DNA of 64,000 nt from Candidatus Heimdallarchaeota archaeon (lineage in GTDB: Archaea; Asgardarchaeota; Heimdallarchaeia; JABLTI01), in the NCBI GenBank assembly GCA_018238155.1, contig JABCTZ010000001.1:1-64000 (forward strand), written 5' to 3'. Of the stretch, positions 55,372-64,000 are shown in pieces (positions within the stretch are counted from its first letter, which is position 1; every line of letters starts with the position of its first letter). Made by a program: the position numbers and the translations under genes. The notes beneath the pieces are model-generated. The model was given only the letters and a program-made list of their open reading frames with translations. It had not been told where the DNA came from and made no database searches.

Positions 55372-57774
55372 TTGTCTAAAAAAAGTGGAATGATTTGTTC
55401 TAATTGTGGCGTTAATGTAGCTGTTGGTAAATTCTGTCCAAAGTGTGGCGTGGCTTTATCAATATCACTTGAACAAGAATTTGATATCCAAAAAAATAGG
55501 TTGGATGAAATAAGCAAAAAACTTGTTAATTTTGAAAGTTCTGTTTTAAAAGCTCTAGCACTTGACTATCATCAAAAATTCGATGAAATTAAATTTAGTA
55601 TCGATACTTTGATCAATAAAATAGTTCATGATTCTGAAAGAATGAATCTTGAAGGTAAAGAGCTTGAGAGTTCTTTAATAATTTGTTTTAGTTGTGGACA
55701 AGAAGTTGCGCTTACAAAATTCTGTCAAAATTGTGGTAAATCCTTGGTTGAATTTGAAGGCGATTATAAGCAAGGATATGTGCAATATTTGGCTCAAACC
55801 CAGAGAAAGGTTAATCTTTTTAGAGACATGGTTGCAAAAATACTTGCAATTGAAGCTCTCACTGATTTAGAGATTATTATTAAAAACATAAGACAATTGA
55901 TTCTCTATTTTAATAGAGAAGAAGTAGAAAAAGTAACAATCGAAAAAGGTCGAGAGGACGTCGATAGCTCCACTGTTGTTTCGGAGAAAAAACAACCGAG
56001 GACTGCTATTCCAAAGAAACAATTTGAAAAAATGCCTGTTGTTACACCGAAAAAAGCATCCTCGCAAACACAACCAAGTGTTAAGAAAGCAGAAATTAAA
56101 CCTGAACGCAAGAAAAGTGCTGCATATAGCAAGCTCGAAAAAAATCTGCTCGATTATTGGTTCTTTTATCTTGCAACAATTATCTTTAGTGTTGGAATCT
56201 CCATTACTCTTTATTTCGTTTCTGTTGAATTGGAATCAGAGGTTTGGCAATTAGTAATTATTTATTCTATTGGTGCAATAATAATTGGTTTTGGTCAGGG
56301 TCTTAATTTATTAGCAAAACATAACAAGAAGAAAAAATTAGCGAAAGAAGAATCTAAACAAACTTCTGATAAAAAGAAGCAACCTTCGCAAGATGAAATT
56401 ATTAAATATACCCCACAAATGACTTCTGTTATTTCATTTATCGGATTTATTGTCCTCTTTATTGGTGGAATCATTGGTATATTATCTTATGAATCTCTGG
56501 GTGTTTCAAAAGGAGTTTTTATTGGTCTTAGTTTAGGTTTAAGTGCTGTTTGTATGGCAATAAGTATCTTGAATAAATCAGAACTCTTAGCTTTGACTAG
56601 TATTCTTCAAGCAATTATTTTTGTTGCAGTTGATCTTTTATGGGCTCAATATCCTCCTATTCTAAGTAACATCTCAAGTTTAATTGTGTATTCTTTGATA
56701 ATTATTGGTGCTACTTGCGTTTCTGTATTCTTCAAAAAATGGACTGTTTCAGCTGTGTCAATGGCTGTTATTCCTATTCTAATTTGTATACCAAGAGTAT
56801 ATTCGCAGATAGGTCTTGAATTTTTAATTCTGATATTTGTACCAATTATGATTATTTTGACTATTCAATTTGGTTCCGAAAAAATACCTATGCCTATCAA
56901 AAGAAGCTTAGTTGTTTTATCATTTATTCTTCCAACAATATCTGTATTTGTTATTTCACTCACAAGTTATTATAATCCAATTACTGAACCTGTTTGGGCT
57001 GCCTATCAATCATATCAATCGTTGCTTATCGGAGTAGTGATTATTGGTATATCTTATTATTATCAATTCATCCAAGAGAAGCATTTAGATATCAAATCTT
57101 CAAATGAGATCATTTGGTTTGCAGGACAAATTCTTACAGGGATAATAGCTTTTCTAACTGTTGGGCTTTACAAAGATATATTGATAACATCATTATTCTT
57201 TACAATCTTCTTTATCTTTGGAATTTTAAGCACGATTAAATTCTTTAGAGAAAAATTGGCTGTTCAAAATATTATCGCTTCTTTTGTTATAGCTGAAATA
57301 CTTGCTATTCTTATTATTGTCTTAGTGGATGTAAATACAACAGCACAAGCTATACTTGTTTTTATTCTCGGAATTTCGTTTGTGCTTATAACAATAGTTA
57401 GCCTATTTATTCCACATTTGCTTCACCAACAACCAGTACTCTTTTTTATTTGGTTTACTCTTTCAACAATCAATCTAATTTTGCTAGGTTTGATGGAAAT
57501 AATTAGTCCATGGTTAACTTTTGTGATCATTGTTCTTCATTTGAGTTGTTCAATAATAGCTGCTCTTCCAATAATCATACCAAAAGCAACTCGTTGGCGA
57601 GAGTTTTCGGTGACATCCTTAATCCTTAATGGTATAGCAGTTCTAGTATTCTTATTAAGTGGGAGATTTGCTTACTTTGATTATGTTCCACTTATTATTT
57701 TCATATTCTTCTTCTTAGCTTCAATATCGGGCTTTATTAATTGGAAGGAACAGGAGGCAATTATCAATGAATAA
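55372..57774 (+). CDS. Large multi-pass membrane protein with two N-terminal Zn-ribbon modules (DUF2339-like N-half)
   Basis: CSNC/FCPKCG and CFSC/FCQNCG; LEKNLLDYW before many TMs; AGGAG site before TTG. Confidence 0.7.
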   Translation: MSKKSGMICSNCGVNVAVGKFCPKCGVALSISLEQEFDIQKNRLDEISKKLVNFESSVLKALALDYHQKFDEIKFSIDTLINKIVHDSERMNLEGKELESSLIICFSCGQEVALTKFCQNCGKSLVEFEGDYKQGYVQYLAQTQRKVNLFRDMVAKILAIEALTDLEIIIKNIRQLILYFNREEVEKVTIEKGREDVDSSTVVSEKKQPRTAIPKKQFEKMPVVTPKKASSQTQPSVKKAEIKPERKKSAAYSKLEKNLLDYWFFYLATIIFSVGISITLYFVSVELESEVWQLVIIYSIGAIIIGFGQGLNLLAKHNKKKKLAKEESKQTSDKKKQPSQDEIIKYTPQMTSVISFIGFIVLFIGGIIGILSYESLGVSKGVFIGLSLGLSAVCMAISILNKSELLALTSILQAIIFVAVDLLWAQYPPILSNISSLIVYSLIIIGATCVSVFFKKWTVSAVSMAVIPILICIPRVYSQIGLEFLILIFVPIMIILTIQFGSEKIPMPIKRSLVVLSFILPTISVFVISLTSYYNPITEPVWAAYQSYQSLLIGVVIIGISYYYQFIQEKHLDIKSSNEIIWFAGQILTGIIAFLTVGLYKDILITSLFFTIFFIFGILSTIKFFREKLAVQNIIASFVIAEILAILIIVLVDVNTTAQAILVFILGISFVLITIVSLFIPHLLHQQPVLFFIWFTLSTINLILLGLMEIISPWLTFVIIVLHLSCSIIAALPIIIPKATRWREFSVTSLILNGIAVLVFLLSGRFAYFDYVPLIIFIFFFLASISGFINWKEQEAIINE

Positions 57775-59419
57775 TAAACAAGCGCAATCAGTTTCGAAAA
57801 CAAAATCAAAGGAAAATAAAGGCGAATTAGAAGAAGCAACTGGCTCTTTGGTTCAAAAAACCTTTATCTCTAAGTACGTTCACCAAATATTTCTTCTGGT
57901 TTTTATCAATATACTCTTTATCGTTTTTGAGCTTGTGGAAGCTTTCAAAATCAATTGGATCTCTGCAATAGTTTATGGAGTAATATCTATTAGCTCAATT
58001 GGTTATATTTGGACTCAAAAGGAATCGGCTAAATTTCTTATTCCAATACCCTTTATTTCATTGTTAGTAGCAAGTCTATTGATTGACTTTCCATTGTTAA
58101 TAACAATCATTTATGGTATTAATTGTCTATTCTTTTTCATTATTGCAATTATTAAGAAAGATGCTCAAGATTCAATTATCACTACAATAACCACAGGATT
58201 AATGCTAGTAATTTTAACATCATTGTCATTAGTTAATCGAGGTTTTATAAAAGTCGACTATGAGCTAAATGCTATTAGTGGGATGTTATTTTTATGGATT
58301 GTTTGTGCAACAGTATCCACAATAATGTTGAGAGATAATCCTGGGCAGATATTTACCTATATACTTTCAGCTCAAATAATTACCGTAGTTATGCCTTTCA
58401 TTCGACCAGAAGGAGTCAATTCTAACGTTTATACCATAATTTGTGCTTTAGGATTCATAGTCACCGCAGTAACAACTTTGGTTCTGGTAACAAGACATAA
58501 AGAATTAGATGATTTTCATCTTCTTCTCTCAGTTATTGTCCTACAAATAGGCATTGTTATTCTCTCATATTCATTCAATATAGGATTTAATTGGACAAGT
58601 CCTAATAATAATGCTCTTATCATAGATTATGCTCTGCATATTCCATTAGCAATCTTTACAATAGCTAATTATCTTTTTAGTTATTTAAAAAGCAGGGAGA
58701 ATCTATTAGAAGATGAGATAGCTGCTAACGATAAAAGATATTCTCAATTCAAACCTTTCATTCTCTATTTGTCATTTGCAATATCATCATTAGCAATGTT
58801 AGGTTGGGTATTTGGCAATCTAAATCTAATCAATGTTTTAATAATTTCAATACTCTTTTTTGTTGTTGGAATTGTGATAAATAACAAGTATCTGACAATA
58901 ATTACAATGATTACATCCTATTTGTTTATAGGTTTAACAATGTCCTTTGTTGGAAGCGTTGTACTCGATATTATTCTCATTGTTTTGATAAGCATTTCAG
59001 GAGCATTGCTAATTTTCTCAATAATAAATGAAAAATGGATTAAAGGTGAGCCATTAACTACAATATTATCTCTAACTAGTTCAATGATGATAATGATCAG
59101 TTTACTTATTTTGCTGGACTTTAATAGTATCTGGATAGGCGTTAGTTGGGTGCTAATAGGTTTCTATCTCTTTGCTGGAGGAATATTTATGGAAAAAATC
59201 CTTTGGAGAAGAGTTGGGTTAGGCATTATCCTTGGAGATATCGTTTTTTCAATTGTTCTCATTGCTATTAGTGGTGGGTCGGGAATCTTCCTTGGAATAG
59301 GATTTATGGTCATTGCTGTAGTACTCTTTGGATGCATCTTCATGTTTAGATGGTCTGAGCAGAAGCAAGAGGCATACCTTCTTGCTGAAAGTGGTGATGA
59401 AAAAACACTTGAAGAATAA
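57767..59419 (+). CDS. Multi-pass membrane protein (DUF2339-like C-half), overlapping the upstream gene
   Basis: 8-nt overlap (ATGAATAA); many TMs; C-terminal WVLIG...GG.......RRVGLGI. Confidence 0.7.
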   Translation: MNNKQAQSVSKTKSKENKGELEEATGSLVQKTFISKYVHQIFLLVFINILFIVFELVEAFKINWISAIVYGVISISSIGYIWTQKESAKFLIPIPFISLLVASLLIDFPLLITIIYGINCLFFFIIAIIKKDAQDSIITTITTGLMLVILTSLSLVNRGFIKVDYELNAISGMLFLWIVCATVSTIMLRDNPGQIFTYILSAQIITVVMPFIRPEGVNSNVYTIICALGFIVTAVTTLVLVTRHKELDDFHLLLSVIVLQIGIVILSYSFNIGFNWTSPNNNALIIDYALHIPLAIFTIANYLFSYLKSRENLLEDEIAANDKRYSQFKPFILYLSFAISSLAMLGWVFGNLNLINVLIISILFFVVGIVINNKYLTIITMITSYLFIGLTMSFVGSVVLDIILIVLISISGALLIFSIINEKWIKGEPLTTILSLTSSMMIMISLLILLDFNSIWIGVSWVLIGFYLFAGGIFMEKILWRRVGLGIILGDIVFSIVLIAISGGSGIFLGIGFMVIAVVLFGCIFMFRWSEQKQEAYLLAESGDEKTLEE

Positions 59420-59441: not shown

Positions 59442-60845
59442 CTATCTTCTTTTCTTTCTAAAGAAAATTATTGGGATTGTTGTTAATAAACTGCTAATTA
59501 CAATGAAAGGATAATTGATTTTGGCTTCATTGGAAGTTGAAGGAGTTAATGTAATGATTGTTGTGCTCAATTCCACTCTAAAAAGCCAAATTCTACTAAC
59601 TGTTTCACCAACAAAATGGGTAGAACCTAAGACTGTAAATGTTTCACTACCATCATAGACAAATGACCCTGCACCGTTTCCAAAAACATCACCTATAGTA
59701 AAATTCCATAGATGTGTTCCATTTTCATCTGTTCTCACAATCCAAGCATCTCCTTGACCTGCTTGGTCAAAATTGTGTGTTGATCCGAGAAAAGTTAATT
59801 CGCCATTCGGCATTTCTATTATATGATTTCCAGTATCTTCTTCTATCCCACCGAATGTTTGATTCCAAATTTGGTTTCCAAATAGATCTGTGCGAATAAC
59901 CCAAAAATCACTGCCACCTTCACCAAAACTATGTGTATTTGCAATTATTGCGAATCCTCCACTAGAACATTTAACAAGTGCTTCTGGTCGTTGATATCCC
60001 GTTTCATCTCCATATGTCATGTTCCATAACGGAATTCCAAATGAGTCTGTCTTAATTAACCACACATCACTTGACTTTGTATCATTATACGTATAGCCAA
60101 GTACTGCAAATCCTCCATCGTCACATTGCACAATACTGTGAGGTGCAAAACATCTGTCAATAGCCCAGTTATCATATACTCTTTCCCATTTTTTGATTCC
60201 ATTTAGACCAATTCTGAATATCCATATATCGCACCCACCACTTGTTGTAATTGTTACTCCACTAAGAACAAAATCACCATTTGAGCATTGAACGACAGAA
60301 CGACCAACATCGCTAATATATGTTCCACCAGTTTGTTCAGATCCACTGAAGTATTTATTCCAGATAATTGTTCCATCATCAGCAATTCGTGTAACCATAA
60401 AATCAGAATTTGTTATTGCTGCGCTCACATTATAAAATGTTGAAGCAATTACATACCCTCCCGTATCACATGCTATTATTTGATACCCTTGATCTTCTCC
60501 GACATCACCAATTGTTTGATTCCACTCTTGGTTTCCATCTGAATCTAATCCAATCAATAAAACATCCAAATCCCCTGCACCTGAGCTGTTTGTCCAACCA
60601 GAAATGGCATATTTTCCTGTAGCACTTTTTACAAGAGACTTCCCAACATTTTCCATTTCTCCACCGAATGTTTTATTCCAAAGAATTACCATTTCAGTTT
60701 CTTCAATGGTTTCGCATCCTGTAATACTGCTTGCAATTTGATTCATTTTTTCTGATTTATTTACTGGAAAATATAACAAAGTAACAATCACTAAACTCAG
60801 AAGAAAAATAGGCAATAATTTGTGATACGAGGTTTGCGTTGTCAT
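59442..60845 (-). CDS. Secreted beta-propeller protein with C-terminal membrane anchor
   Basis: Repeats W(N/E).T(F/Y)G...D...GG(F/Y)...D.W...TD..G; signal peptide; TM followed by RKKRR. Confidence 0.8.
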   Translation of the reverse strand: MTTQTSYHKLLPIFLLSLVIVTLLYFPVNKSEKMNQIASSITGCETIEETEMVILWNKTFGGEMENVGKSLVKSATGKYAISGWTNSSGAGDLDVLLIGLDSDGNQEWNQTIGDVGEDQGYQIIACDTGGYVIASTFYNVSAAITNSDFMVTRIADDGTIIWNKYFSGSEQTGGTYISDVGRSVVQCSNGDFVLSGVTITTSGGCDIWIFRIGLNGIKKWERVYDNWAIDRCFAPHSIVQCDDGGFAVLGYTYNDTKSSDVWLIKTDSFGIPLWNMTYGDETGYQRPEALVKCSSGGFAIIANTHSFGEGGSDFWVIRTDLFGNQIWNQTFGGIEEDTGNHIIEMPNGELTFLGSTHNFDQAGQGDAWIVRTDENGTHLWNFTIGDVFGNGAGSFVYDGSETFTVLGSTHFVGETVSRIWLFRVELSTTIITLTPSTSNEAKINYPFIVISSLLTTIPIIFFRKKRR

Positions 60846-60985
60846 AGTAGATAATATTTCATCATTATTTATTAATAAACTCCAACTTTACATCTGCACT
60901 TTCAAAATCAATTATCAATAATAAAAAACAAACATCTACCCAAAAGAAACCTAAAAAAGTTTCTCTTTCCACATCATCTTTGAGA

Positions 60986-62602
60986 TTAAAATTTAATATA
61001 TTCAATCCTTGGCAAAGAGTTCTGTGGGAATCTTGAAAGAAGCACTCCTTGAGAGGAAATGGAAGATATATCTCTTACTTTTGAGATTCTTGGATTCATG
61101 CTATCAACTATTGATACTAATTGATTCATATTTGCTATTTGTCCGCTGTGGAGGCAATATCGAATCATACTCGATGGAGTTAATGCTTCATAAATTGGTA
61201 TTGACAACTTTTTGGATATTTCGTTTCGGAAATTGCTGAAATTCCCTTCAGAGAGATTTCTATTATGTGTATCGTGATATATTTTTCTAATTATTGCTGG
61301 TGGAACACCCTTGAAAGCAAAGGCATACAATTCCAGAGAAGATGGATCGAAATACAATTCATGTACAACACCTACCAATGATCTATCTGGTGATAGTACT
61401 CTCCGTCCTAATAACCCTGCATTTTCTGCTAGAGTTAAAACTTGAGAGTTTTGATTTAAAATTGGTTGATTATTTATATAATTAATCGCACTAACAGGAA
61501 CTGAAGCGAAATAGGAATTAATTAATTTCAACAAATCAATTCCAAGTTTGTTCTGAATAGAATATTTTACTACATTTTCAGGATATAGTGCCTGTTCTTT
61601 ATCCACTCCAAATGAATCCACTATTAGTTGTTGTAATCTGTCTTCAATTACTTTTGGATTTGAGGATGATCGCAATCTTGAAGGTCCTACTACAGCTATA
61701 TCACGAATTACTGCTAGAGAAGGTCTATCTGTTGCAATTATCGCGAAACTACTCCCAATGATGTTTATATCACCGATTAATTTCCCAATAGTGATTCCTT
61801 TCCATTTGATCCAAATGTCCTCTCCTGGTGGTGGTCTAGTTGGCTCATGAGTTACCCTTTGAGCGTTAGTTTGTATTGGTTCTGCTTTTGGTTGAGGTGT
61901 AGCAATAGCTCTTTGTTTTGTTGATTTTCTTTGTTTCTCTGATTTGGTCCAATCTTCTTTTTTAAACTCTACATCTGCAATTTTTGATAATTTTTTAGCT
62001 ACAGAATGAGTGTTCTTTTGAATCTTTAATAAGCGCTTTCTCTCTAAATCCAATTCCTTCTTTTTTGCTGTATCCATTGCAGCATCGATTGCAAGCTCAT
62101 CTATGTTTTGATTAATAACAGTGCTCAGTTGTTCAATTAATTCTAATGATTTTGGTATTCCTTGGATTAGCGTTTCTCTTTTGGCTTTAATTGTTAACAA
62201 TAACGTTTCGTATTCTCTTTTTTTACTTTTTATTGCTGATTCTGTAACACTACCTTTTGCTGCCAGCTCATCTAGTTTTTTGATTCGAACTTGAACACTT
62301 TTCTTTTCTTCTTCAATATACTCCAATCTTCTAATAAAACTTTGAACATTTACATGGATAGTTTCAAGGTCAGGTATAATTGCTTCGTAAGTTGCAAAAC
62401 CATCTCGAATATATGATTTCTCTTCGGCTGATTCTAAAACGTGATAGTAATTTTTCTTTAACGTTTCATATAATTCATCACTGATATCTCGCTTCCTTTT
62501 TCTTATATCTAGTTCCTCAATTAAAGTTAAAATATAGTTTTTGCCGAAATTTTCCAATTGAATTTCATTTTTAGCCAAATGGTTTGAACCCCTTGCTGTC
62601 AT
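60986..62602 (-). CDS. CdvA-like coiled-coil protein with C-terminal PRC-barrel-like repeats
   Basis: N-terminal coiled coil with LEELxxxGxIxxxxY-like motifs; C-terminal LLGRRVLSPDRSLVGVVHELYFD PRC-barrel pattern and an internal duplication. Confidence 0.6.
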   Translation of the reverse strand: MTARGSNHLAKNEIQLENFGKNYILTLIEELDIRKRKRDISDELYETLKKNYYHVLESAEEKSYIRDGFATYEAIIPDLETIHVNVQSFIRRLEYIEEEKKSVQVRIKKLDELAAKGSVTESAIKSKKREYETLLLTIKAKRETLIQGIPKSLELIEQLSTVINQNIDELAIDAAMDTAKKKELDLERKRLLKIQKNTHSVAKKLSKIADVEFKKEDWTKSEKQRKSTKQRAIATPQPKAEPIQTNAQRVTHEPTRPPPGEDIWIKWKGITIGKLIGDINIIGSSFAIIATDRPSLAVIRDIAVVGPSRLRSSSNPKVIEDRLQQLIVDSFGVDKEQALYPENVVKYSIQNKLGIDLLKLINSYFASVPVSAINYINNQPILNQNSQVLTLAENAGLLGRRVLSPDRSLVGVVHELYFDPSSLELYAFAFKGVPPAIIRKIYHDTHNRNLSEGNFSNFRNEISKKLSIPIYEALTPSSMIRYCLHSGQIANMNQLVSIVDSMNPRISKVRDISSISSQGVLLSRFPQNSLPRIEYIKF

Positions 62603-62756
62603 TGTTGATAGAGAAGATATCTACGTTATAGTACTATTAGCTACATAATACCATTTTAATATTTAGTAATGGATTTAGTCCTAAAAGATAATATCTTTTT
62701 CGCTCAGAAATATCAAAAGCATATTATATTCATTTAATAATTTTTGTTTAATCGTT

Positions 62757-63401
62757 GTGATAATTATGAAAGAGATTATCTTAGCCTCTGCATCACCAAG
62801 GCGTCATGAATTGCTTACTCTAATTGGAATTCCTCATATTGTTATTCCTTGTAAAGAAGAAGAAGGTCAAGTAACAAATAATGCTTCAAAATCTTCTGCT
62901 TCAGAAAAAAAACAAGAAACAATAGAAGAAAGCATCTTACAAGTAGCATGTCAAAAAGCACTATGTGTTGCGAAAACATTATCTCCTGCAAAAAAGAAAT
63001 CTGCTTTAATTTTGGGTGCAGATACTATTGTAGTACTAAATGATGAGATTATTGGAAAACCTTCTTCCCTTGAAGATGCTTTTGAAATGCTCAAGAGATT
63101 AACTGGGAATGTTCATGAAGTTTATACTGGTTTATGTTTGTATGACCTTGAGGTTGATCGATTATATTCTGGAGTTGAGAAAACTTTAGTGAGTATGATT
63201 TCTTGTTCTGATAGTAGAATTCAAGCGTATATTGCATCTGAGCATATTTTGGACAAAGCAGGCGCATATGCTGTTCAAGGAATTGGTGCAGCGCTAATTG
63301 ATCATATAGATGGTTGTTTCTATAATGTAATGGGACTACCTCTTAGCAGATTAACCAATATTTTGGATGAGATTGGATATCCTTTTCTCAAAACTAAATA
63401 G
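62757..63401 (+). CDS. maf: Maf/YhdE-type nucleoside triphosphate pyrophosphatase
   Basis: IILASASPRR, LGADTIV, GKP, DKAGAYAVQG, NVMGLP; likely start ATG 62766. Confidence 0.93.
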   Translation: MIIMKEIILASASPRRHELLTLIGIPHIVIPCKEEEGQVTNNASKSSASEKKQETIEESILQVACQKALCVAKTLSPAKKKSALILGADTIVVLNDEIIGKPSSLEDAFEMLKRLTGNVHEVYTGLCLYDLEVDRLYSGVEKTLVSMISCSDSRIQAYIASEHILDKAGAYAVQGIGAALIDHIDGCFYNVMGLPLSRLTNILDEIGYPFLKTK

Positions 63402-63544: not shown

Positions 63545-64000
63545 TTGAATTCAAAGAAACTCTCAGCAGTATTCATAATACTTGCAATGGTATTTGTAAC
63601 GTCAGTTCAATTTATCTCACCAACTGAGACAAAAGCATCAGTTATTGAAGATTCTATTATTTTAACCCCTCGAAGCTCTGATGTGGTAATAACCAAAAAG
63701 ATTGTTGCATCTAATGGAAGCTTGCTTGAATTCTATAATACTTATTCAGAGGAGACTTTCTCCGTCATTGTTGAAGTTACAAACACAGCAAGTGAAGTTC
63801 TTCATAATGCTAGCATGACTTCACCTGAAATTAACGTCACAGATATGAGAGAAATCATCAGTCAATCTGTCTATGAAGAAGAATGGTTTAAAATTTTAGG
63901 TAATGGTTCACAATTCTTTGGTGATATTAATCCCGGTCAATCCAAGAGTGTTTCTTATACAATTGGATTCGAAGAGGAATATTACGATACGGTTATTCAA
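63545..64000 (+). CDS. Secreted Ig-like (CARDB/TRAP-beta-like) protein, 3'-partial
   Basis: GAGGT site, TTG 63545, open to the window end; signal peptide; VITKKI...VIVEVTN...GDINPGQSKSVSYTI; not in the ORF track. Confidence 0.7.
   Translation, partial: MNSKKLSAVFIILAMVFVTSVQFISPTETKASVIEDSIILTPRSSDVVITKKIVASNGSLLEFYNTYSEETFSVIVEVTNTASEVLHNASMTSPEINVTDMREIISQSVYEEEWFKILGNGSQFFGDINPGQSKSVSYTIGFEEEYYDTVIQ

What the first reader, a model, noticed from the sequence alone, without database searches (positions are those of the whole stretch)
60986..62602. Domain-permuted CdvA-like protein (coiled coil first, duplicated PRC-barrel-like modules last), head-to-head with maf
Seen in sequence: the N-terminal coiled coil carries two related motifs (IEELDIRKRKRDISDELYETLK and RIKKLDELAAKGSVTESAIKSKKREYE). 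A Pro-rich linker follows. Two C-terminal modules share a helical insert (IVDSFGVDKEQALYPENVVKYS vs ISKKLSIPIYEALTPSSMIRYC), and the second has a clear PRC-barrel start (LLGRRVLSPDRSLVGVVHELYFD). Established: crenarchaeal CdvA is a PRC barrel followed by a coiled coil and recruits ESCRT-III; PRC-barrel CdpB proteins act in FtsZ-based archaeal division. Inference: a rearranged CdvA relative that may scaffold membrane remodelling or division. The divergent maf neighbour (a septation-associated family in Bacillus) may be coincidental.
Basis: partly seen in the sequence, partly recalled or inferred. Interest (0 to 1): 0.7.

Follow-up and report, generated by a model that had tools for sequence, protein, structure and literature searches.

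The report
Coiled-coil protein with two split PRC barrels
This is a real, strongly conserved but unannotated gene from one family of Heimdall-type Asgard archaea; its protein combines the two building blocks of the archaeal division protein CdvA (a three-helix coiled coil and PRC beta-barrels) in reversed order, and what it does is still untested.

Summary
The ORF at 60986-62602 (-) is real. About 40 sequence clusters of 519-546 aa share it, all from Heimdall/Asgard MAGs, and it was found in only one GTDB family among 301 Asgard genomes. No Pfam or NCBIfam model matches it.

- a helical hairpin;
- a long coiled coil;
- a disordered Pro-rich linker;
- two beta-barrels, each split by a roughly 70-aa helical insert.

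The barrels match PRC barrels best (MTH1859, RimM, CdpB1/B2; Z 6.6-7.5). In an unbiased scan of 48,161 PDB chains, the coiled coil matches the CdvA filament subunit best (Z 11.0, 124 residues).

Sequence support is weak. The CdvA and PRC Pfam models do not match, and there is no tail for CdvA's ESCRT-III-binding (E3B) peptide and no ESCRT gene nearby. So the protein is CdvA-like in its parts but is not a CdvA family member.

The family is a two-repeat offshoot of a wider Asgard three-repeat family. This scan had already flagged that family on other DNA, often next to profilin.

The head-to-head maf neighbour is conserved, but only among close kin. Function is inferred: a self-assembling scaffold.

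The parts
60986..62602 (-). Whole ORF, 538 aa (P0001), including the stop codon. The likely true start is the TTG at 62578, giving 530 aa.
   Evidence: 37 full-length homologues aligned
62429..62557 (-). N-terminal helical hairpin, residues 16-58. It contains the first SHOCT-like motif (LIEELDIRKRKRDISDELYETLKKNY).
   Evidence: AF2 helices 16-36 and 42-58, pLDDT 84-90; no Pfam match
61976..62368 (-). Long coiled-coil domain, residues 79-209 (helices 79-116, 121-147, 149-176, 178-209). It resembles the CdvA three-helix coiled coil.
   Evidence: VIA-align: CdvA 9s9g Z 11.0-11.2, 124 residues, rmsd 3.7-3.8, model 87-210 against chain 68-191
61817..61975 (-). Disordered Pro-rich linker, residues 210-262. 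It ends in the conserved E-P-x-R-P-P-P-G motif just before barrel 1.
   Evidence: pLDDT 31-48; Pro runs tabulated
61418..61816 (-). Repeat 1, residues 263-395. A split PRC-like barrel (strands 263-290 and 365-382) with a helical insert at residues 296-362 (61517-61717).
   Evidence: CdvA PRC barrel Z 3.8 and CdpB 8qzo_A Z 5.2 spanning both barrels; no significant sequence match to PRC
60989..61417 (-). Repeat 2, residues 396-538. A split PRC barrel (strands 401-430 and 505-522) with a helical insert at residues 435-501 (61100-61300).
   Evidence: VIA: 1pm3 Z 6.8-7.3 (65 of 68 residues), RimM 2f1l Z 7.5, CdpB 8onw Z 6.6-6.9; hhalign against Asgard PRC barrels E 6e-4
60930..60985 (-). Oligo-T tracts (T6, T4, T6) within about 55 nt after the stop codon. 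They are a likely archaeal terminator, so the gene is probably transcribed alone.
   Evidence: read directly from the sequence
62603..62756 (.). 154-bp AT-rich intergenic region shared with the divergent maf gene.
62757..63401 (+). Divergent neighbour: Maf nucleotide pyrophosphatase. This is context only and has not been shown to be a functional part.
   Evidence: Pfam Maf 2.4e-53 and TIGR00172 1.1e-45; adjacency conserved

Best explanation
The gene encodes a soluble scaffold protein of about 530 aa, specific to one family of Heimdall-type Asgard archaea.

**Shown here**
- The gene is real and under strong purifying selection, especially in its C-terminal half.
- Its predicted anatomy is a helical hairpin, a CdvA-like long coiled coil, a disordered Pro-rich linker of about 45 residues, and a rigid C-terminal body.
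- That body consists of two PRC beta-barrels. In each, the loop after the third strand has grown into a helical subdomain of about 70 residues.
- The family is a two-repeat offshoot of a wider Asgard family with three such repeats.

**Inferred**
- The coiled coil drives self-association, as in CdvA filaments.
- The covalently linked pair of PRC barrels acts like a built-in CdpB1:CdpB2-type pseudo-heterodimer. It would dock a partner or chain into polymers.
- The linker carries short peptide motifs for a further partner.

The most likely cellular role is as an assembly platform for a division, membrane-remodelling or cytoskeletal machine. The partner is not known.
For: **Gene and family**
- 41 hits, all Heimdall/Asgard, none with a Pfam family apart from stray precomputed hits on one member and on a transposase chimera.
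- An exhaustive phmmer scan of 1.8 billion representatives found only this family.
- Mean column identity is 72% in the C-terminal half and 57% in the coil.

**Fold**
- AF2 pLDDT is 82.2 for the whole protein. The C-terminal half alone scores pLDDT 93.2 and pTM 0.89.
- PRC barrel: the nine best VIA matches are all PRC barrels (1pm3_B Z 6.8, 65 of 68 residues, rmsd 2.9; 7cq1 Z 6.7; 8onw_A Z 6.6). Foldseek's best is 8qzo_B at E 9.7e-4. 2f1l gives Z 7.5.
- The nearest ESM Atlas clusters include PRC-barrel families, but with weak scores (TM 0.29-0.31, feature score 0.86-0.88).
- By profile, repeat 2 without its insert matches Asgard PRC barrels at E 6e-4 in the correct register.
- Coiled coil: CdvA 9s9g is rank 1 of 48,161 chains (Z 11.0, 124 contiguous residues). 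The next match is Z 9.6 over 77 residues.
- The insignificant HMM alignment to CdvA uses the same offset (19) as the structural alignment.
- The AF2 weights predate the CdvA structure, which was released in 2026, and no templates were used.

**Precedent**
- CdvA is a PRC domain plus a three-helix coiled coil and forms filaments (PMC12818579).
- CdpB1:B2 pseudo-twofold heterodimers chain into filaments and bind SepF; MTH1859 packs in the same way (10.1101/2023.03.28.534543).

**Wider family**
- The three-repeat profile A4 matches this gene at E 2.8e-12 and is found in 49 of 301 Asgard genomes.
Against: - No sequence model of PRC, CdvA or SHOCT matches.
- CdvA is not significant by sequence.
- Z 11 for a helical domain and Z 6-7 for a small barrel both fall in the range the tool calls 'middling'.
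- Repeat 1 shows no sequence signal for PRC.
- No ESCRT, FtsZ, SepF or PRC gene lies next to this gene. They sit on other contigs.
- PRC barrels also serve unrelated roles (RimM, reaction-centre H subunit), so the fold does not fix the function.
- The family occurs in only one GTDB family.
Confidence: 0.45

Rival explanations
1. An actin- or profilin-linked scaffold. The superfamily would work with the Asgard actin system, and the Pro-rich linker of this protein would be a docking site for profilin.
For: - The three-repeat paralogue lies directly beside a profilin gene in three GTDB families. These are this genome (L011: 2541-5597 and 5649-6026; Pfam Profilin 6.7e-5), G025 (L012; 5.3e-7) and G014 (139 bp apart).
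- In this family, 31 of 37 members carry a run of three or more Pro in the linker, and 7 of 37 carry P4-P6 runs.
Against: - This gene is not next to profilin.
- P0001 itself has only PPP.
- The six most divergent members have no Pro run.
- In family f4 profilin lies elsewhere, and none was found in the f21 and f24 genomes searched.
- No binding test was run.
Confidence: 0.2
2. A lineage-specific adaptor built from common parts, with no relation to CdvA or CdpB in descent or role. It could be, for example, a ribosome, RNA or chaperone adaptor like other PRC-barrel proteins. The resemblance to the CdvA coil would then be the generic look of long helical bundles.
For: - Z 11 is under the tool's caution line for helical folds.
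- STAT, ESCRT-I stalk, cofactor A and designed bundles score Z 8-9.6.
- The sequence matches are generic coiled coils.
- The literature notes that PRC barrels are often found near translation or RNA genes (10.1101/2023.03.28.534520).
Against: - CdvA is rank 1 in an unbiased scan and is the only top match covering 124 contiguous residues.
- It occurs together with PRC barrels in the same chain, which is CdvA's own pair of domains.
Confidence: 0.2
3. Part of the conserved neighbouring block of ER-type membrane-biogenesis genes (VTT-domain protein, Get3, TRAP-beta-like protein) and Maf. It might act, for example, as a cytoplasmic tether for that machinery.
For: The order VTT_dom, ArsA/Get3, an 85-aa ORF, TRAP_beta, Maf, then this gene is identical in three relatives at 44-50% identity.
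Against: - The gene is divergent from that block and appears to have its own terminator.
- All the genomes checked belong to one GTDB family, so the shared order may simply be inherited.
- The three-repeat paralogues lie in other contexts.
Confidence: 0.08

Closest known systems
CdvA of Sulfolobales (PRC domain + three-helix coiled coil + ESCRT-III-binding (E3B) peptide; PDB 9s9g/9s9i; Pfam PF18822)
   Same: - It has the same two kinds of domain in one chain.
- Its coiled coil is the best structural match to residues 87-210 (Z 11.0-11.2, 124 residues, 17% identity).
- Its PRC barrel aligns to barrel 1 (Z 3.8).
   Different: - The domain order is reversed.
- There are two barrels instead of one, each split by a roughly 70-aa helical insert.
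- There is an extra N-terminal hairpin.
- There is no C-terminal tail for an E3B peptide.
- PF18822 does not match.
- It is not encoded with ESCRT-III or Vps4 genes.
- It occurs in Asgard archaea, not TACK.
CdpB1/CdpB2 PRC-barrel division proteins of FtsZ-using archaea (PDB 8qzo, 8onw) and MTH1859 (1pm3)
   Same: - They give the best Foldseek and VIA matches to the C-terminal body (E 9.7e-4; Z 6.6-7.3).
- Two different PRC barrels pair up, here within a single chain.
   Different: - CdpB proteins are small single-domain proteins without a coiled coil or a large insert.
- PF05239 does not match this protein.
- Binding to SepF is untested.
Asgard three-repeat coiled-coil / split-PRC-barrel proteins (unannotated; P0046 in this genome, P0047-P0049 in other families)
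   Same: - The C-terminal repeats are homologous. The A4 profile matches this gene at E 2.8e-12. By hhalign, A2 matches P0047 at 96% probability and P0049 at 91%.
- The overall plan is the same: coil, linker, repeats.
   Different: - They have three repeats and are 620-1070 aa long.
- They are found in at least nine GTDB families, as against one for this family.
- They often lie beside profilin.
- The N-terminal coils are not demonstrably homologous.

Membership tests
PRC barrel (Pfam PF05239) | Match to the PF05239 profile at or above its cut-off | tested here: not met
   No match at E<=10 for the whole protein or for fragments. The six-frame scan of this genome at E<=1 does not list this gene.
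PRC barrel (Pfam PF05239) | Small five/six-stranded PRC-type beta-barrel fold | tested here: met
   Repeat 2: 1pm3 Z 6.8-7.3 (65 of 68 residues), 2f1l Z 7.5, 7cq1 Z 6.7-7.2, 8onw Z 6.6-6.9. The nine best VIA matches are all PRC barrels. Repeat 1 is weaker (9s9g barrel Z 3.8; 8qzo_A spans both barrels at Z 5.2).
PRC barrel (Pfam PF05239) | Sequence signature of the first strands (h-h-G-+-x-V ... h-G-x-V-x-D-h-x-h-D) and the closing strands | tested here: inconclusive
   Repeat 2 without its insert, compared with 18 canonical Asgard PRC domains: hhalign E 6e-4, 61 columns, correct register, but only 29% probability. Repeat 1: E 0.24.
CdvA (Pfam PF18822; Cdv division system) | Match to the CdvA coiled-coil profile PF18822 | tested here: not met
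   Not listed at E<=10. The six-frame scan of this genome finds no match at this gene.
CdvA (Pfam PF18822; Cdv division system) | Three-helix coiled-coil fold like the CdvA filament subunit | tested here: inconclusive
   9s9g is rank 1 of 48,161 chains (Z 11.0, 124 residues, rmsd 3.7) and Z 11.2. The tool warns that Z under about 13 for helical bundles may be a common arrangement.
CdvA (Pfam PF18822; Cdv division system) | Domain order: N-terminal PRC barrel, then the coiled coil | tested here: not met
   Here the coiled coil (residues 79-209) comes before the two barrels (263-538).
CdvA (Pfam PF18822; Cdv division system) | Flexible C-terminal tail carrying the ESCRT-III-binding (E3B) peptide | tested here: not met
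   The chain ends inside the folded body (pLDDT 88-91 up to residue 538), so no tail exists. The E3B motif itself could not be searched.
CdvA (Pfam PF18822; Cdv division system) | Encoded with, or co-occurring with, CdvB (ESCRT-III with a winged helix) and CdvC | tested here: not met
   The neighbours are Maf, TRAP-beta-like, Get3, VTT and BpsA genes. This genome's two Snf7 genes lie on contigs C17 and C10.
CdvA (Pfam PF18822; Cdv division system) | Polymerises into double-stranded filaments | not testable with these tools
   This needs purified protein and EM.
CdpB (single-domain PRC proteins of FtsZ-based division) | Small stand-alone PRC domain that binds SepF or a CdpB partner | tested here: not met
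   This is a 538-aa multidomain protein. The genome has a separate canonical PRC protein (C39, 23.1 bits) and a SepF gene (C21). Binding was not tested.
SHOCT (Pfam PF09851) | Profile match of the two N-terminal L-D-x-L-...-I-S/T-x-x-x-Y motifs | tested here: not met
   No SHOCT match at E<=10 for residues 14-62 or 95-140. The two motifs align with each other at only E 0.07.

The most novel reading that the evidence does not exclude
This is a true, domain-permuted relative of CdvA in Heimdall-group Asgard archaea, where CdvA is thought to be absent. It would polymerise through its coiled coil. Through its twin PRC barrels and Pro-rich linker it would couple a filament system (ESCRT-III, SepF/FtsZ or actin/profilin) to a site of membrane remodelling. 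Together with its three-repeat, profilin-adjacent paralogues, it would define an Asgard-specific class of cytoskeletal organisers.
Probability: 0.2. Interest if true: 0.8.

Novelty: new variant of a known kind. Interest (0 to 1): 0.55.

Why it matters
CdvA is regarded as a signature of the TACK-archaeal Cdv division system, with no counterpart in Asgard archaea. How Asgard cells organise division, membranes and their actin cytoskeleton is still largely unknown.

This gene is an unannotated, highly conserved Heimdall-lineage protein that reuses CdvA's two modules in a new arrangement. It belongs to a wider Asgard family that often sits beside profilin. That makes it a concrete, expressible candidate for an organiser of these processes.

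It also documents a structural novelty: a PRC barrel whose internal loop has grown into a conserved helical subdomain, duplicated in tandem.

The limits are that this two-repeat family is confined to one GTDB family and that its function is inferred from folds alone.

Tried and rejected
- **Homodimer prediction.** Complex prediction on residues 1-220 (two copies, alignment A1) returned 'no answer' (score 0.00, controls not run). It says nothing for or against self-association.
- **Family libraries.** Pfam and NCBIfam scans of the whole protein, its halves and short fragments gave only generic coiled-coil noise (STAT_alpha at 0.0013, below its cut-off).
- **PDB by sequence.** Profiles A1 and A3 returned only coiled-coil noise; CdvA scored E 0.29 and 1.4.
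- **Stand-alone or split forms.** A search with profile A2 for proteins of 154-503 aa found only truncated or partial members of the same family.
- **ESM Atlas.** Fold and feature searches gave weak matches, some to PRC-barrel clusters (TM 0.29-0.31; feature score 0.86-0.90). I treat these as leads only.
- **N-terminal coils.** The coil of this family could not be shown to be homologous to the coils of the three-repeat relatives (best E 1.1e-3, over one motif).
- **'Not a gene'.** Rejected because of the conservation across about 40 clusters.
- **An enzyme.** I considered this because of the many invariant polar residues (TDRPS, HE, NSY, MNPR), but no catalytic fold or motif was found.
- **CdvA sequences.** I could not obtain CdvA sequences as references, so no direct profile-profile test against a CdvA alignment was run.

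Full report
**1. The observation**

The minus strand of 60986-62602 holds one open frame of 538 aa.
- Homologues start about nine residues later. Residue 9 is a TTG preceded by AAGGGG at a spacing of 9 nt, so 62578 is the likely true start.
- Oligo-T tracts follow the stop codon. The upstream neighbour is divergent, so the gene probably forms its own transcription unit.
- That neighbour (62757-63401, +) is Maf (Pfam 2.4e-53).

**2. A real and narrowly distributed family**

- The word-indexed search gave 41 hits. Nearly all are 519-546 aa and come from Heimdallarchaeota or 'Asgard group' MAGs, and none carries a Pfam family apart from stray precomputed hits on P0039 and the P0042 chimera.
- An exhaustive phmmer scan of 1.84 billion cluster representatives found only this family: three full-length representatives plus fragments.
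- Among 301 Asgard genomes, the C-terminal profile (A2) gave full-length matches only in one GTDB family (9 of 10 genomes besides this one).
- Conservation is high and uneven. Mean column identity is 72% in the C-terminal 284 residues and 57% in the coil. The linker is poorly conserved.

**3. Structure**

AlphaFold2 with the family alignment gave pLDDT 82 for the whole chain. The C-terminal half alone gave pLDDT 93 and pTM 0.89.

| Region | Residues | Prediction |
|---|---|---|
| Helical hairpin | 16-58 | two helices |
| Coiled coil | 79-209 | four long helical segments |
| Linker | 222-254 | disordered |
| Repeat 1 | 263-395 | 3 strands, helical insert of about 70 residues, 3 strands |
| Repeat 2 | 396-538 | the same plan |

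**4. The barrels are PRC-type**

- For the C-terminal model, VIA-align was run against 48,161 PDB representatives. The nine best matches are all PRC barrels:
  - MTH1859 (Z 6.8; 65 of 68 residues, rmsd 2.9);
  - the RimM C-terminal domains;
  - A. fulgidus CdpB;
  - 3htr;
  - AF2094;
  - a reaction-centre H subunit.
- Foldseek's best matches are the CdpB1/CdpB2 heterodimer chains (E 9.7e-4).
- The alignments run across the insert. The insert is therefore an expansion of the loop after strand 3, where some canonical Asgard PRC proteins already carry a short helix (alignment).
- At the sequence level, repeat 2 with the insert removed aligns to 18 canonical Asgard PRC domains in the right register. 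The signal is weak (E 6e-4, probability 29%). Repeat 1 gives nothing.
- The Pfam PRC model does not match.
- The insert on its own resembles generic small helical bundles (Z about 4.5).

**5. The coiled coil**

- Re-ranking Foldseek's candidates put the S. islandicus CdvA filament subunit first (9s9g, Z 11.2) and its non-polymerising mutant second (Z 10.4).
- An unbiased scan of 48,161 chains again ranked CdvA first: Z 11.0, 124 contiguous residues, model 87-210 against chain 68-191. The next match scored 9.6 over 77 residues.
- ESCRT-I stalk hairpins, STAT coils and designed bundles follow at Z 8-9.6.
- The tool warns that such values can reflect common helical arrangements.
- Sequence searches do not make CdvA significant (E 0.29 and 1.4). 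However, the HMM alignment uses the same offset of 19 as the structural one. PF18822 does not match.
- The AF2 weights predate the 2026 CdvA structure and no templates were used, so the resemblance is not memorised.

**6. CdvA membership**

CdvA is defined by four features: an N-terminal PRC domain, a three-helix coiled coil, a flexible tail with an ESCRT-III-binding (E3B) peptide that binds CdvB, and filament formation (PMC12818579).

Here the order is reversed, there are two modified barrels, and no tail exists. No ESCRT gene is adjacent; the genome's Snf7, SepF, FtsZ and canonical PRC genes lie on other contigs.

I therefore describe the protein as built from CdvA-like parts, not as a CdvA.

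**7. Wider family and context**

- The A2 profile also matched, weakly, larger ORFs in this genome and in other Asgard genomes.
- These proteins (P0046-P0049) have an N-terminal coil and three such repeats. The two repeats of P0001 correspond to their last two (hhalign probabilities 76-96%).
- A profile of them (A4) matches 49 of 301 Asgard genomes across about ten GTDB families, and matches this gene at E 2.8e-12.
- Earlier notes of this scan had flagged these three-repeat proteins on other DNA and reported profilin next to them.
- I checked that claim. Profilin is adjacent in this genome, in G025 and in G014. It is not adjacent in two genomes of family f4.
- In the present family, 31 of 37 linkers carry a run of three or more Pro, and seven carry P4-P6 runs. 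That is a lead towards profilin, but P0001 itself has only PPP.

**8. Synteny**

Three relatives at 44-50% identity share the same order of genes: VTT-domain protein, Get3/ArsA, an 85-aa ORF, TRAP-beta-like protein and Maf, followed by this gene head-to-head with Maf. After it come, convergently, BpsA_C and AdoMet decarboxylase.

In this window the downstream side instead holds a 467-aa exported protein.

All these genomes belong to one GTDB family, so the conserved maf pairing may be inherited order rather than functional coupling.

**9. Mechanism and verdict**

- Shown: the gene, its conservation and its predicted folds.
- Inferred from CdvA and from CdpB1:B2/MTH1859, which chain through PRC-PRC contacts: self-assembly through the coil, and docking or chaining through the fused pair of barrels.
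- The single complex prediction gave no answer and counts neither way.

I rate the scaffold reading at about 0.45. The rivals are a profilin/actin link, a generic adaptor, and a role with the neighbouring membrane-biogenesis genes.

The finding is a new variant of known kinds of module. It is of moderate to high interest for Asgard cell biology, limited by its narrow distribution and by the lack of any functional test.

Noticed in passing
G000 contig C7, locus L011:2541-5597 (+) and L011:5649-6026 (-): This genome also encodes a 1018-aa paralogue (P0046) with three split PRC-barrel repeats. It is convergent with a profilin gene (Pfam Profilin 6.7e-5). The same adjacency holds in G025 (L012) and G014, but not in two genomes of family f4.
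   Followed up: partly
protein P0042 (NCBI, 3.1-kb contig): A 337-aa database protein is identical to residues 1-101 of this protein and then continues as a DDE transposase (PF13613, PF01609, PF13359). This is either an insertion sequence inside the gene in a related population or a chimeric contig.
   Followed up: partly
window 62576-62602: The annotated ATG start probably adds eight residues. Homologues start at the position of the TTG at 62578, which has AAGGGG 9 nt upstream.
   Followed up: yes
linker columns of alignment A1 (P0001 residues about 225-245): Most family members carry a short conserved linker motif, [DE]-[IF]-K/T-P-L-[RK]-x-E-[VF] (for example ADIKPLRQEV). It looks like a short linear binding motif. 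The P0001 subgroup has diverged here.
   Followed up: no
window 63545-64000 (+) and beyond; loci L006, L008, L010: A block of ER-type genes (TRAP-beta-like, an 85-aa ORF, Get3/ArsA, VTT/VMP1-like domain protein) follows maf. It is kept in the same order in three relatives.
   Followed up: partly
window 59442-60845 (-): A 467-aa protein has an N-terminal hydrophobic segment, repeated G-x-D/W beta-propeller-like units and a C-terminal membrane anchor. It has a weak match to Mycoplasma adhesin P1_N (2.8e-6). It occupies the place where relatives have BpsA_C and AdoMet decarboxylase.
   Followed up: no
window 55372-59419 (+): Two large polytopic membrane proteins have overlapping stop and start codons. 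The first (800 aa) begins with two double-zinc-ribbon modules and a coiled coil. The second (550 aa) has no family match.
   Followed up: no
G277:C15, G289:C44, G259:C22: In three related genomes, a canonical PRC-barrel gene (ORFs of 69-259 aa) lies about 24-29 kb from the orthologue of this gene on the same contig. The scan of this genome did not report one on contig C24.
   Followed up: no
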